Part shown: piece after piece, positions 50,615 through 56,422 of the stretch
How positions within the stretch are numbered: the stretch's first letter is position 1
Layout of the letters: each line of letters opens with the position of its first letter
NCBI GenBank assembly: GCA_963677895.2
Contig: CAXXGJ010000021.1
Span: 1 to 64,000, forward strand
DNA length: 64,000 nt
Origin: Treponemataceae bacterium
Lineage (GTDB): Bacteria > Spirochaetota > Spirochaetia > Treponematales > Rectinemataceae
Direction of reading: 5' to 3'
Notes under the pieces: generated by a model
The model's input: only the letters and a program-made list of their open reading frames with translations
Told to the model about the DNA's origin: nothing
Database searches by the model: none
Translations under genes and position numbers: made by a program

Positions 50615-52354
50615 CTAGAGTTCGAGCGACTTGGTCGCTATCCTGTCCAGGACTCTGGCGACGAAGACATCGAGCGCCATGCCATTCTCCTGCCGCCCGT
50701 CCCTGAAACGCACCGAAACGGCTTTTTCGTCCATTTCCTTCTGTCCGACCACCAGCATATAGGGAATTTTCTGGTTCTGCGCGTCGCGGATTTTCGCGTT
50801 CATGCGCGAGTCGGAGAGGTCGGCGCGAGCCCTCATTCCGGCGGCCTTGAGGTCGCTCACCAGCTTCTTGGCGTAATCATCGAAGGCGGGAGCGACGGGA
50901 ATTACCGTTACCTGCTCGGGGCAGAGCCATACGGGGAAAGCGCCCGCGGTGTGCTCGAGGTAAACGCCGAAGAAGCGCTCGATCGAGCCTAGCAGGGCGC
51001 GGTGGACCATGTACGGCCGCTTGCGCTGTCCGTCGGCGTCGACGTAGGTCATGTCGAAACGTTCGGGTTCGTTGAAGTCGAACTGTATGGTGGTAAGCTG
51101 CCATTCGCGACCGATGGCATCCTTTACTTTGAGGTCGATCTTGGGTCCGTAGAAGGCGCCGCCGCCTTCATCGACCTCGTAGGCCAGGCCTTCCTTTTCC
51201 ACTGCCTTGCGGAGACTCTCCAGGGCTGTGCTCCACATCTCGGGGGCGCCGACGGAGTCCTCGGGATTGGATGGCTTGGTGGCCAGGTACGCCTTGATTT
51301 CCTTGAACCCGAGCGTCTTGTGCATAAATAGGGAGAAACGCAGGACTTCGGCGATCTCATCCTGGATCTGATCCGGCGTGCAGATGATGTGCGCGTCGTC
51401 CTGGGTGAAGCCTCGCACGCGCATGAGCCCGTGCAGGGTGCCCGAGCGTTCGTAGCGGTAGACGGTGCCGAGTTCGGCCCAGCGCAGCGGCAGGTCCCGG
51501 TAGGAGTGGTTGTTCGTCTTGTAGATCATGATATGGAAGGGGCAGTTCATCGGCTTGAGGTAGTAGTCATCCTCGTCGATCTTCATCGACGAGTACATGC
51601 CCGCCTTGTAGAAGCCGAGGTGTCCGGAAGTTTCCCAGAGCCAGCTCTTGCCGATATGGGGGGTGAATAGCACTTCATAGCCGTTCTTGTAATGCTCGTC
51701 GCGCCACCAGTTCTCGAGGGCGACGCGGAAGCGTCCGCCCTTAGGGTGCCAGTACACGAGGCCGGGTCCCGCCTCTTCGTGAGTCGAGAAGAGATCCAGA
51801 TCCTTGCCGAGCTTGCGGTGGTCGCGCTTTTCGGCTTCTTCGAGCAGCTTGAGGTGAGCCTCGAGATCGGCCTTGGAGGCGAAGCAGAAGGCGTAAATGC
51901 GGGTGAGCATCGGGCGCTTCTCGTCGCCGCGCCAGTAGGCGCCCGCGATGGTCTTGAGCTTGAAGCAATCGGGCCGGATCGCGCGGGTATTCTCCACATG
52001 AGGTCCCCTGCAGAGATCCATGAAGCCATCCTGCTCGTAGATGGAAATGGTTCCGTCCTCCAGGTCCTCGATCAGCTCCAGCTTGAAAGGCTGGTCGGCG
52101 AAGAGCGCCCTCGCCTCTTCCTTGGAGACTTCCTTCCTGACGAAAGCGTGTCCGCCGGAGATGATGCGTCTCATCTCCTTCTCGATCGAGGGAAGATCTT
52201 CATTCGTTATCGGGGTAGGCAGGAGAAAATCGTAGTAGAACCCCTCGTCGATCGCGGGTCCTATTCCGAACTTGGTGCCGGGAAAGAGATGCAGCACCGC
52301 CTCAGCCATAACATGCGCGGCCGAATGCCTCACCATGTTCACGTCGTTCATCAT
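50615..52354 (-). CDS. thrS: Threonine--tRNA ligase (lacks the N-terminal TGS domain)
   Basis: RHSAAH, DLCRGPH, RDHRKLG, KPMNCP.H, YRYE.SG.LHGL.RVRGFTQDD, HRA.LGS.ERF; SD AAGGAG 8 nt before ATG 52354. Confidence 0.97.
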   Translation of the reverse strand: MMNDVNMVRHSAAHVMAEAVLHLFPGTKFGIGPAIDEGFYYDFLLPTPITNEDLPSIEKEMRRIISGGHAFVRKEVSKEEARALFADQPFKLELIEDLEDGTISIYEQDGFMDLCRGPHVENTRAIRPDCFKLKTIAGAYWRGDEKRPMLTRIYAFCFASKADLEAHLKLLEEAEKRDHRKLGKDLDLFSTHEEAGPGLVYWHPKGGRFRVALENWWRDEHYKNGYEVLFTPHIGKSWLWETSGHLGFYKAGMYSSMKIDEDDYYLKPMNCPFHIMIYKTNNHSYRDLPLRWAELGTVYRYERSGTLHGLMRVRGFTQDDAHIICTPDQIQDEIAEVLRFSLFMHKTLGFKEIKAYLATKPSNPEDSVGAPEMWSTALESLRKAVEKEGLAYEVDEGGGAFYGPKIDLKVKDAIGREWQLTTIQFDFNEPERFDMTYVDADGQRKRPYMVHRALLGSIERFFGVYLEHTAGAFPVWLCPEQVTVIPVAPAFDDYAKKLVSDLKAAGMRARADLSDSRMNAKIRDAQNQKIPYMLVVGQKEMDEKAVSVRFRDGRQENGMALDVFVARVLDRIATKSLEL

Positions 52355-52423
52355 ACGCACAGCTCCTTTTTCGCTGCCTTGAAAGCCCTTATGGGTTCCG
52401 GCGGCGAGTGTCAAATACGACGC

Positions 52424-52787
52424 GGCCCCCATCGCAATACGCCCATACGGGAAGCCGCGCTTCTCGTAAGGACGAATCGCGTGGGGGCCTATGGAACTCG
52501 GGCGCGCTTTACAGCCGTCCGACGTCAGGCTTCACGATGATCCGCGGTGCCACCTTACTTCGGCTCCCCGCGATGGGGGCCGCTCTCGACGCCTTTGACG
52601 GAAGGCCGCCGGAACCGGATACTCGCACCCCGAAGGGGAGGCTTTCACCGGAACTGCTACGGAGTGGTTTTCTTCGGCGCCGCGACGGGATCCTTCCACC
52701 CAGAGGCTCGCGACTACTGCCGCGTGACTGCCGGGATCCCTCTCTCATGACGCTGAGCAAGCCGAATACTTGTCTCCATCATCGCAT
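52424..52787 (-). ncRNA. T-box riboswitch, Thr (ACC) specifier, thrS leader
   Basis: Stem I TGCGATGA-TGGAG-ACAAGTA...AGAGAG...GGTGGAA...GAA-A-ACC-A-CTCC; stem II with GAA/AGTA; IIA/B CCGTCA; stem III; AAGTAAGGTGGCACCGCG (52560-52543); antiterminator 3' arm CGTCCTT (52474-52468). Confidence 0.92.
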
Positions 52788-52926
52788 TTAGCTAAATATC
52801 CTACGGAGAGCTGCCGAATGTCAAGCATAACACCCGGGCGTCGTCGACCGGATGGAGCCGCTTGCCTCCGGAAATGCCGCCGCTATTTCCAAACACCTTG
52901 TTTATAATTATATTCGTAGATATTTT

Positions 52927-53253
52927 ATGAACAGCATGAATGGACAACTAATGAACGAAGGCCAAACGGTATCCCAGGAGGAACGGATCGTCGAACCGAA
53001 AGAACCCGAGGAGTACAGGGTTCTTCTTTTGAACGATGATTTCACGACCATGGAATTTGTCGTCTCCGTACTCATGACGATCTTTCACAAATCCCTGCAG
53101 GAAGCCAACAAGATTATGATCGACGTACACAGGAAAGGCAGGGGCATCGTCGGCGATTACTGCTATGACATCGCCGCCACAAAAATCAATCAGGTACACC
53201 TGCTCGCGAGGCAAATGGGCTTTCCGCTGCGATGTACCATGGAGAAAGTATAA
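52927..53253 (+). CDS. clpS: ATP-dependent Clp protease adaptor ClpS
   Basis: YRVLLLNDDFTTMEFVV, VHRKG.G, FPLRC; exact start uncertain (52927/52936/52951). Confidence 0.95.
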   Translation: MNSMNGQLMNEGQTVSQEERIVEPKEPEEYRVLLLNDDFTTMEFVVSVLMTIFHKSLQEANKIMIDVHRKGRGIVGDYCYDIAATKINQVHLLARQMGFPLRCTMEKV

Positions 53254-53256
53254 GGT

Positions 53257-55632
<2,376 letters not shown>

Positions 55633-55639
55633 AAGCGAG

Positions 55640-56422
55640 ATGATCCGTTTCCTGCGATCCGTACCTTATCTCGATGAAGGTTGTTCCTATTCGTTTCCTT
55701 CAGTGGACGGATCTTCCCCCGAAGGCATCGTGTGCGCGGGAGGCAACCTTTCGCCTGGAGTCCTCCTGTCTTCCTACAGGCAGGGGATTTTTCCCTGGTA
55801 TGGCGAAGGCGACCCCATTCTCTGGTGGAGTCCCAATCCGCGCTTCGCGGTGCTACCCGAGACGTTTCACCTTCCCGACAGTTCGAGAAGGTTATTAAAG
55901 CGCCATGATTTCAGGCTCAGCCTCGACAGGGAATTCAGCCAGGTGATCTCCCGCTGCGCCAGCGTTCAGAGGCCTGGCCAGGACGGTACATGGATTCTCC
56001 CGGAGATGAGGAATGCCTATGAAAGACTCCACGAACTGGGCTATGCCCACTCGGTGGAAGTCTGGCGCGAAGGCTCCCTGGCGGGAGGTCTCTACGGCAT
56101 AAGTCTGGGCGGAGCCTTCTTCGGGGAATCCATGTTCAGTCTGGAAAGCGGGGCTTCGCGCGTGGGCTTTCTCTGTCTCGCGCTGATGCTGTTCGAACAG
56201 GGGTTCACGCTGATAGACAGCCAGGTCCATACGGATTACGTGGCGGGCATGGGGGGCGTCGACCTGCCGCGCGGCGCTTATCTGCGGCGCCTCGAGGCAT
56301 CCCTACCGCAAGGGGACAGAAAAGGCTCCTGGAAAGACGTCTTTCCGCTGTTCCCCGCCTCCAAAGCCCTGGCCGACATCGCCGGCGCCGATAAGATCGA
56401 CGCGAGCCGCGCCGAACCATAG
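55640..56422 (+). CDS. aat: Leucyl/phenylalanyl-tRNA--protein transferase
   Basis: GIFPWY, LWWSP.PR, GTWI, AHSVEVW, GGLYG, GESMFS, IDSQ. Confidence 0.95.
   Translation: MIRFLRSVPYLDEGCSYSFPSVDGSSPEGIVCAGGNLSPGVLLSSYRQGIFPWYGEGDPILWWSPNPRFAVLPETFHLPDSSRRLLKRHDFRLSLDREFSQVISRCASVQRPGQDGTWILPEMRNAYERLHELGYAHSVEVWREGSLAGGLYGISLGGAFFGESMFSLESGASRVGFLCLALMLFEQGFTLIDSQVHTDYVAGMGGVDLPRGAYLRRLEASLPQGDRKGSWKDVFPLFPASKALADIAGADKIDASRAEP

What the first reader, a model, noticed from the sequence alone, without database searches (positions are those of the whole stretch)
52355..52583. Atypical T-box expression platform fitting neither standard class
Seen: the antiterminator 3' arm (GATTCGTCCTT, 52478-52468) lies about 65 nt from the T-box bulge, so its loop is greatly expanded. 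The competing helix is a roughly 30-bp imperfect hairpin (52489-52424) followed by GCGTCGTATTTG, not a U-tract. The SD lies about 55 nt further on, outside it. A perfect 14-bp complement links the stem III region (52583-52570) to the hairpin's 3' arm (52435-52422), giving a third possible fold. Inference: a variant mechanism such as Rho-dependent or U-less termination, RNase III-type processing, or long-range translational control. This is my best regulatory candidate for something undescribed.
Basis: partly seen in the sequence, partly recalled or inferred. Interest (0 to 1): 0.72.

Follow-up and report, generated by a model that had tools for sequence, protein, structure and literature searches.

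The report
Long-armed spirochaete threonine T-box, weak terminator
The leader of the threonyl-tRNA synthetase gene is a tRNA-sensing T-box switch whose unusually long competing hairpins are the norm across related spirochaetes; only its stop signal has decayed, so it likely still halts transcription there but would need help from protein factors.

Summary
The sequence observations are correct, but most are not peculiar to this leader. It is a Thr (ACC) T-box before thrS in a Rectinemataceae-like spirochaete. Among 91-92 spirochaete orthologues, three "atypical" traits are normal: a long antiterminator insert (median 46.5 nt; here 68), a ~28-bp hairpin and a distant SD. The "loop" is an extended antiterminator stem. 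At least 47 of 91 orthologues end in a real U-tract, so the architecture is a scaled-up transcriptional (class I) platform.

What is atypical is the tail: 3 U in 9 nt. Fifteen close relatives show graded erosion at the same place, keeping U+9 (15/15) and a pause-like RY (14/15). Best reading (0.55, inferred): pause-anchored termination near 52417-52415 assisted by NusA/NusG and/or Rho, probably leaky.

The 14-bp stem III complement is real but strong only in this genus and one or two sister genera, with no covariation. A genus-level anti-SD helix is the main rival. A few family members use direct SD sequestration instead.

No expression data could test this. I found no description of spirochaete T-boxes in the papers searched, and no earlier scan finding on this DNA. 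New variant of a known kind; interest 0.42.

The parts
52795..52824 (-). Sigma-70-like promoter (TTGACA, 18 nt, GATATT)
   Evidence: 10 of 12 consensus matches; consensus match only
52523..52791 (-). T-box leader as matched by Rfam RF00230 (65.9 bits, below gathering score 93; E 5e-14); only T-box match in the genome
52656..52785 (-). Long Stem I with basal GA motif, AGAGA bulge (52745-52741) and distal GGUGGAA loop (52700-52694)
52666..52668 (-). Specifier codon ACC (Thr); the genome has one tRNA-Thr(GGU)
52591..52654 (-). Stem II (52654-52615) and Stem IIA/B pseudoknot-like region (52611-52591)
   Evidence: alignment; pseudoknot read from sequence by analogy
52559..52587 (-). Purine string GAGAG, Stem III (52582-52561) and flanking AA (RRRxG-Stem III-AA motif)
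   Evidence: motif as defined in PMC7583486; Stem III pairs covary
52466..52558 (-). Extended antiterminator: 6-bp A1 (GUAAGG/CCUUAC), bulge UGGCACC (52552-52546), A2 of 7 bp plus extensions, capped by an insert hairpin (52520-52500); -35.3 kcal/mol
52424..52489 (-). 28-bp terminator-type hairpin (-46.7 kcal/mol); its 5' arm (52489-52466) is the switch strand
52412..52423 (-). Eroded U-tract GCGUC-GU-AUUUG with pause-like GS(N)7RY register ending at 52417; predicted 3' ends 52417-52415
   Evidence: conservation; motif from bioRxiv 10.64898/2026.05.29.728758; 3' ends inferred
52372..52406 (-). Local hairpin H3 (-13.9 kcal/mol) ending just before the A-rich SD
   Evidence: similar hairpins in relatives seen by eye, not counted
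52363..52368 (-). Shine-Dalgarno AAGGAG
50615..52354 (-). thrS, threonine--tRNA ligase, 579 aa
   Evidence: TIGR00418, 710 bits, cut-off 384
52570..52583 (-). Stem III 5' arm and loop, complementary (14 WC bp) to 52435-52422; Stem III 3' arm 52571-52561 also pairs with 52457-52447 (11 bp, 2 GU). Third fold, limited to this genus and sister genera
52493..52498 (-). Candidate anti-SD AGUUCC, predicted to pair with GGAGCU only in the hairpin (OFF) fold; seen in 3 genomes of the genus and one sister genus

Best explanation
This is a threonine T-box leader with enlarged antiterminator and terminator arms that likely controls thrS by transcription attenuation, stopping RNA polymerase near 52417-52415 at a decayed U-tract that would need NusA/NusG and/or Rho to work. 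Shown: all class I sensing parts, two mutually exclusive folds sharing a 24-nt switch strand, orthologues with canonical U-tracts after the same hairpin, and a conserved tail. Inferred: uncharged tRNA-Thr(GGU) binds ACC and the UGG of the bulge and stabilises the -35 kcal/mol antiterminator, so polymerase reads through. With charged tRNA, the apical GAAGC/GCUUC hairpin nucleates and displaces the antiterminator while polymerase pauses at the GS(N)7RY register, and the 28-bp hairpin completes. Release then needs factor help because no U adjoins the stem; termination is probably leaky.
For: A1 outer pairs, not used for anchoring, are paired in 92 of 92 leaders with double changes; A2 positions 4-7 are paired in 92, 92, 89 and 82 of 92. 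The extended antiterminator is 95% paired in a 16-row clade alignment, against 28-48% when slid. Hairpin median is 28 bp; 47 of 91 have 5 or more U in 7 nt, 39 of those 47 have 25 bp or more, and their SD gap runs 10-155 nt, median 32. Terminator minus antiterminator is -11.4 kcal/mol here, close to the TBDB mean difference of about -12 (-19.5 vs -7.4). The two energies scale together in the U-tract class (Spearman 0.59, n=47; kin not independent). In 15 close relatives the tail keeps U+7 in 14, U+9 in 15, U+10 in 12 and RY at +6/+7 in 14 (about 0.26 expected from this genome's 3' hairpins, a rough figure), while most columns from +12 on vary. Sister genus g20 has 5-6 U runs at the same place in most rows. 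rho, nusA and nusG are present above cut-off. Nus-assisted termination at interrupted U-tracts is documented (PMC8060035; PMC3993855), as is overlap of Rho and intrinsic termination in a spirochaete (PMC10319736).
Against: Only 3 U in 9 nt and none in the first three positions. PMC3993855 states that 3 or more adjacent U are needed with E. coli RNAP and that U-less hairpins did not terminate even with NusA and NusG. Nus-dependent terminators in PMC8060035 have distal interruptions, whereas here the proximal part is lost. No C-rich, G-poor rut-like stretch: C19/G23 in 52560-52490 and C18/G21 in 52423-52355. The genome's ordinary terminators are U-rich (U 0.52-0.58 at +1 to +4 in 233 hairpins), so the organism has no general U-less habit, although 33% of those hairpins also have 2 or fewer U in 8. 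U content did not track GC3 (Spearman -0.03, n=61, on cruder hairpin calls). Folding predicts a 3.9 kcal/mol SD-accessibility switch in the right direction, which favours the translational rival. No 3'-end data exist in the runs laid.
Confidence: 0.55

Rival explanations
1. Translational control at a distance. In the hairpin fold, AGUUCC (52498-52493) at the hairpin's 5' foot closes a junction around the long hairpin and H3 and pairs with the SD; or the Stem II-IIA/B strands pair with the 3' region when tRNA is absent. The antiterminator fold frees the SD.
For: The SD partner maps to this segment in L001, L018, L025 and L030, with predicted switches of 3.9, 7.0, 2.5 and 1.5 kcal/mol. The whole-leader fold buries the SD (unpaired probability about 0.02) through 52657-52650:52366-52359 and a perfect 12-bp helix 52616-52605:52405-52394. 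A switch of 3 kcal/mol or more occurs in 6 of 16 weak-tail leaders against 7 of 47 U-tract leaders. Family members L028 and L151 pair the switch strand directly with the SD. PMC7583486 says A2 insertions are frequent in translational T-boxes.
Against: The core is 6 bp with 2 GU closing a multiloop. It is absent in L027, L035 and L037, which have the same weak tail (switch 0.5-0.8). Larger switches arise in U-tract leaders (up to 5.8). The Stem II partner was the SD partner in only 2 of the 7 full leaders that could be folded (7 of 31 tried). It does not explain conservation of the tail U's.
Confidence: 0.18
2. An ordinary but weak factor-independent terminator: this lineage's RNA polymerase releases at the 28-bp hairpin plus pause signal without helpers, giving low-fold attenuation.
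For: Graded erosion of U's in the clade with no break in architecture. A B. subtilis terminator with only 2 U was accepted in PMC8060035. Mycobacterial RNAP terminates better than E. coli RNAP at imperfect U-tracts.
Against: No U adjoins the stem; the liaH example has its 2 U adjacent to the stem. Purified RNAPs did not terminate at U-less hairpins.
Confidence: 0.12
3. A decaying switch: the terminator no longer works in this genus and thrS is close to constitutive.
For: Three related genomes appear to have lost part or all of the T-box (L046/L138 internal deletion; L172 and L174 keep only the tail and H3; assembly artefacts not excluded). The bulge base facing tRNA U73 is C, a mismatch.
Against: All sensing motifs, both folds and their energy balance are intact and conserved in 3 of 3 genomes of the genus and in sister genera. 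A pyrimidine opposite U73 is the family majority, including U-tract leaders.
Confidence: 0.08
4. RNase III-type cleavage of the 28-bp hairpin destabilises full-length OFF-state mRNA instead of termination.
For: rnc is present above cut-off; the hairpin is long.
Against: The hairpin is broken by several bulges. Equal length is the norm in leaders with strong U-tracts (39 of 47), so length needs no nuclease explanation. No cleavage data.
Confidence: 0.05

Closest known systems
Transcriptional (class I) T-box leaders, Rfam RF00230, e.g. Bacillus tyrS/thrS (class label and examples recalled)
   Same: Long Stem I with AGAGA and distal loop, specifier matching the gene, Stem II and IIA/B, purine string with Stem III, A1-bulge-A2 with the terminal G-U pair, a terminator sharing the antiterminator's 3' strand, and a similar energy gap (about -11 vs -12 kcal/mol).
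   Different: Both arms are several times more stable than TBDB means (-35 vs -7.4; -47 vs -19.5). A1 is 6 bp. The tail fails the TBDB poly-U rule (best 4 U in 7). The score is below the Rfam gathering cut-off, as in 59 of 61 genomes searched.
Staphylococcal glyS T-box with Stem Sa (PMC9177973; passages read)
   Same: Lineage-wide insertion in the antiterminator/terminator domain of a transcriptional T-box, missed by standard tools, variable in length.
   Different: That leader lacks Stem II and was tested. The insertion here extends A2 itself and varies from 10 to 113 nt. No sequence relationship was tested.
Translational T-boxes of Actinobacteria (ileS; PMC7583486 passages, TBDB passages)
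   Same: A2 insertions; no U-tract; a few spirochaete relatives (L005, L008, L071, L028, L151) have the switch strand pairing with the SD.
   Different: Long Stem I here; the SD lies 55 nt outside the competing hairpin; no conserved sequestrator in the query's clade.
NusA/NusG-dependent terminators (PMC8060035, PMC3993855) and the HUB GC(U)7RU model (bioRxiv 10.64898/2026.05.29.728758)
   Same: G-C-rich stem base, interrupted U-tract, pause-like edge dinucleotides.
   Different: Here the proximal U's are lost, not the distal ones, and only 2 of 7 central positions are U; this is weaker than nearly all tested examples.

Membership tests
T-box leader (RF00230) | Covariance-model match | tested here: inconclusive
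   65.9 bits, E 5e-14 over the full model, but below gathering score 93
T-box leader (RF00230) | Specifier codon matches the downstream gene and a tRNA in the genome | tested here: met
   ACC at 52668-52666; thrS; one tRNA-Thr(GGU)
T-box leader (RF00230) | A1 - 7-nt UGGN bulge - A2 with terminal G-U, supported by covariation | tested here: met
T-box leader (RF00230) | RRRxG-Stem III-AA motif | tested here: met
   GAGAG-Stem III-AA at 52587-52559; definition
T-box leader (RF00230) | Bulge N pairs with the tRNA discriminator base | tested here: not met
   UGGC against U73; U73 in 30 of 30 family tRNAs read; N is U in 61, A in 17, C in 13, G in 1 of 92 leaders
T-box leader (RF00230) | Binds uncharged cognate tRNA and switches expression | not testable with these tools
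   needs in vitro or in vivo assay
Transcriptional (class I) T-box | Long Stem I with AG bulge and distal loop; Stem II and IIA/B | tested here: met
Transcriptional (class I) T-box | Terminator hairpin mutually exclusive with, and more stable than, the antiterminator | tested here: met
   -46.7 vs -35.3 kcal/mol, shared strand 52489-52466
Transcriptional (class I) T-box | U-tract directly after the hairpin (TBDB rule: 5 U in 7 nt) | tested here: not met
   best 4 of 7, 3 of first 9; met in at least 47 of 91 orthologues
Translational (class II) T-box | SD inside the hairpin that competes with the antisequestrator | tested here: not met
   SD 55-56 nt outside
Translational (class II) T-box | SD accessibility switches with the fold in a conserved way | tested here: inconclusive
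   3.9 kcal/mol here, 2.5-7.0 in the genus, 0.5-1.5 in sister genera; 7 of 47 U-tract leaders also reach 3 or more
Rho-dependent terminator | C-rich, G-poor unstructured rut site upstream | tested here: not met
   C below G in all four segments counted; rho itself present
Rho-dependent terminator | Read-through on bicyclomycin or Rho loss | not testable with these tools
   no such data among the runs found

The most novel reading that the evidence does not exclude
In this genus and its sisters the T-box has become a three-state device that works without a U-tract. The hairpin fold gives pause-anchored, factor-dependent termination plus long-range SD masking. After read-through, the freed 3' arm zips onto both arms of Stem III (about 23 nt, 9-12 kcal/mol gain), locking the ON fold and ejecting the tRNA. 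It would be caught midway in a family where one orthologous T-box interconverts between terminator, U-less and SD-sequestering platforms.
Probability: 0.13. Interest if true: 0.75.

Novelty: new variant of a known kind. Interest (0 to 1): 0.42.

Why it matters
It extends T-box control to a phylum where a 2008 survey found none in 6 genomes (PMC2494555) and where a 2023 paper names one characterised riboswitch (PMC10319736). Standard cut-offs miss it in 59 of 61 genomes. The orthologous set is a natural series from strong U-tract through eroded tail to direct SD sequestration on the same class I aptamer. That makes two questions testable: how little U-tract a riboswitch terminator can keep, and how expression platforms switch between transcription and translation. 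Taken alone, this leader is a weak-tailed member of that series.

Tried and rejected
RNA evidence: 11 RNA or possibly-RNA runs held only small shares. The 8 runs laid, all as contigs, gave scattered low-depth pieces that cannot show ends or levels; one 187-nt contig covered only the aptamer and one relative's contig crossed the hairpin. Not used.

'Third fold is a family feature': rejected. Own Stem III beat foreign Stem III in 39 of 78 leaders; gain of 9 kcal/mol or more only in the 3 genomes of the genus (L030 was mis-anchored there, and one search does predict the fold for L027 and L030). Ten or more WC bp in 3 of 48; covariation score reached by 97 of 500 shuffles. Against this rejection: shuffle p of 0.05 or less in 7 of 48, all in the query's clade, and matched pairs beat permuted pairs at p 0.009 (kin not independent).

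'The genome uses U-less terminators generally': rejected. Only 2 of 233 3' hairpins have a CGUC(A/G) tail, both with an A-run on the other side.

'U-tract loss follows GC content': no correlation.

Internal promoter at the second TTGACA (52414-52409): no fitting -10. In-frame ATG at 52432: no SD in front of it and not kept in L027.

The tail table picked the SD in several rows and was redone for the clade. The careful tree did not finish; the quick tree was used for grouping only. Two reviews (PMC2271356, PMC2650889) were not held. TBDB's phylum heat map and supplements could not be seen. Three look-ups of earlier scan findings gave nothing on this element.

Full report
Identity and context. 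The finding lies in the 5' leader of thrS (52354-50615, minus strand; TIGR00418 710 bits), divergent from a clpS-like gene. A sigma-70-like promoter sits at 52824-52795. Rfam RF00230 matches 52791-52523 at 65.9 bits, E 5e-14, below the gathering score of 93; the gathering-level scan of the window missed it, and it is the only match in the genome. The specifier is ACC and the genome has one tRNA-Thr(GGU). The closest named thrS relatives are spirochaetes, and records titled Rectinemataceae are the same loci as members of the window's family.

Observation check. Every coordinate is right: the 3' arm at 52478-52468, a 28-bp hairpin at 52489-52424 (-46.7 kcal/mol), the tail GCGUCGUAUUUG, the SD 55 nt on, and an exact 14-nt complement, longer than in any of 500 shuffles (maximum 11). 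Contigs from two DNA-like runs match the region without differences, one possibly the source.

Comparison set. 47 of 61 genomes searched (own plus 60 relatives) have a T-box match, 2 above the cut-off. Of 49 loci read, 47 hit thrS and 46 of those have the T-box motif upstream. 44 of 80 further thrS loci carry the motif. With family-wide additions there were 102 distinct leaders. I dropped 9 from Chloroflexota and 1 with Ns, leaving 92; one more lacked a called SD, leaving 91. Kin are not independent, so counts describe the set and are not tests.

The 'expanded loop' is an extended stem and is normal. The insert spans 10-113 nt, median 46.5; 27 of 92 are 67 nt or longer, and the query has 68. 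Helix A1 is 6 bp: its two outer pairs, not used for anchoring, pair in 92 of 92 with double changes (UA 80, CG 10, UG 2). A2 pairs at positions 4-7 in 92, 92, 89 and 82 of 92. In a 16-row clade alignment a 20-pair extended antiterminator is 95% paired against 28-48% for slid controls. In the query 25 switch-strand bases pair back at -35.3 kcal/mol. An insertion in this domain has precedent in staphylococcal Stem Sa (PMC9177973, passages).

The long hairpin and distant SD are normal. Median hairpin is 28 bp. 47 of 91 meet the TBDB poly-U rule (5 U in 7 nt), 16 are weak (4 of 7, including the query), 20 have none and 8 have the SD inside. By eye about ten 'none' or 'SD-in' calls have a misplaced hairpin base and some of those show clear U-runs (L051, L098, L054), while L004 may be over-called; 47 is therefore roughly a floor. 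39 of the 47 have 25 bp or more and their SD gaps run 10-155 nt. The energy gap here (-11.4) is close to TBDB's mean (-19.5 vs -7.4), and the two energies scale together across U-tract leaders (Spearman 0.59). I infer that the terminator is long because the antiterminator is long.

What is atypical is the tail. This genome's 3' hairpins are U-rich (233 hairpins after 1133 genes with a gap of 60 nt or more, crude gene calls; U 0.52-0.58 at +1 to +4; 55% with 4 or more U in 8 and 33% with 2 or fewer). The query has 3 U in 9. I compared 15 leaders: the quick-tree clade around the query without L010, L149 and L028, plus L141, which was too short for the tree. Their tails align without gaps after GGGGGCY and grade from UUUUUU runs in genus g20 to GUAUUY in the query's genus and three sister genera. 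U+7 is kept in 14, U+9 in 15, U+10 in 12, RY at +6/+7 in 14 and Y|G at +5|+6 in 13, while most later columns vary. With the stem's G-run this gives GS(N)7RY ending at 52417, the pause consensus quoted in bioRxiv 10.64898/2026.05.29.728758 (parts 1-2 of 7 read), and C-10 with A-2 U-1 ending at 52415, but only 2 of 7 central U. I read this as selection on a pause or stop site at terminator distance; that step is inference.

Mechanism. rho, nusA, nusG and rnc are all present. Nus factors rescue terminators with interrupted U-tracts (PMC8060035 passages; PMC3993855 passages), and Rho regions overlap 45% of predicted intrinsic terminators in B. burgdorferi (PMC10319736 passages). Against this: PMC3993855 reports a need for 3 or more adjacent U and no termination at U-less hairpins even with Nus factors; the loss here is proximal rather than distal; and no C-rich rut-like stretch exists. 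I therefore give factor-assisted, probably leaky termination 0.55.

The third fold. Stem III's 5' arm is a near-direct repeat of the hairpin's 5' foot, so any partner of one fits the other. When the antiterminator is enforced, the freed 3' arm is predicted to pair with both arms of Stem III in L001, L027 and L030. The gain is 9-12 kcal/mol in the three genomes of the genus, with a median of 1.7 against 1.9 for foreign Stem IIIs, and own beats foreign in 39 of 78 (L030 mis-anchored there). In the clade alignment the 14 pairs are 78% paired, several outer pairs fail in 6-11 of 16 rows, and covariation does not exceed shuffles (97 of 500). In its favour: shuffle p of 0.05 or less in 7 of 48, all in this clade, matched pairs beat permuted pairs (p 0.009), and L030 has 11 WC bp including bases unpaired in its own terminator. 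Stem III is needed for tRNA binding (PMC7583486 passages), so if the fold forms it would act after read-through. It is not a family feature, and L037 has the same weak tail without it.

Translational rival. The whole-leader fold buries the SD through long-range pairs with Stem II and IIA/B, but that partner recurred in only 2 of 7 foldable leaders. With the platform alone, AGUUCC at 52498-52493 pairs with the SD in the hairpin fold in the genus and L030 (switch 3.9, 7.0, 2.5, 1.5 kcal/mol), not in L027, L035 or L037; 7 of 47 U-tract leaders also reach 3 or more. Some relatives (L005, L008, L071, L028, L151) have short platforms in which the switch strand pairs directly with the SD, so interconversion has happened in this order. 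I give this 0.18.

Novelty. Eight paper searches found no description of spirochaete T-boxes. PMC2494555 lists 0 in 6 spirochaete genomes (passages). The TBDB main text, PMC7583486, PMC2965389 and PMC12452182 have no hit for 'Spiroch'. TBDB's phylum figure, all supplements and two major reviews could not be seen, so database listings may exist. The class I/class II labels are recalled. Earlier scan notes held nothing on this element. Verdict: a real T-box that works like a class I attenuator and fails one membership feature (the U-tract); a new variant of a known kind; interest 0.42.

Noticed in passing
L005, L008, L071, L028 (G015), L151 (G016): Short platforms in which the switch strand CGUCCUU pairs directly with the SD: translational-type control on a full long-Stem-I thrS T-box, two of them in the query's own family.
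   Followed up: partly
L046 / L138 (G025:C408): Leader jumps from just after the specifier to the hairpin's 5' foot, lacking Stem II, Stem III and the T-box; natural deletion or assembly collapse.
   Followed up: no
L172 (G092), L174 (G091): thrS upstream region keeps only a tail-like stretch, H3 and the SD; the T-box and long hairpin are absent.
   Followed up: no
window 52552-52546 and G000:C25:328389-328461: Bulge base N is U, A, C or G (61, 17, 13, 1 of 92) while tRNA-Thr(GGU) has U73 in 30 of 30 family genomes read and no encoded CCA in G000; most leaders lack a fourth Watson-Crick pair.
   Followed up: partly
L032, L036, L047, L057, L063-L065: A second group with long hairpins, no U-tract at all and mostly a short gap (3-25 nt) to the SD; mechanism unexplained and weaker-tailed than the query.
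   Followed up: no
L014 (G043), L015 (G032): The only T-box matches not before thrS; the downstream ORFs look like tryptophan synthase beta and aspartyl-tRNA synthetase (names from my reading of the translations); both have short canonical terminators.
   Followed up: no
G000:C38:488542-489783: Rho lies in a 617-aa open frame with a long extension ahead of the Rho_N domain.
   Followed up: no
L077-L079, L104, L107, L116, L119, L121, L122: Chloroflexota thrS genes with compact canonical T-box platforms (11-17 bp); L107 has a long insertion flanked by repeats between T-box and thrS.
   Followed up: no
window 52852-56422 (+): Divergent clpS-like gene followed by ORFs that look like ClpA and Leu/Phe-tRNA-protein transferase (clpS, below cut-off; the other two names recalled from the translations).
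   Followed up: no
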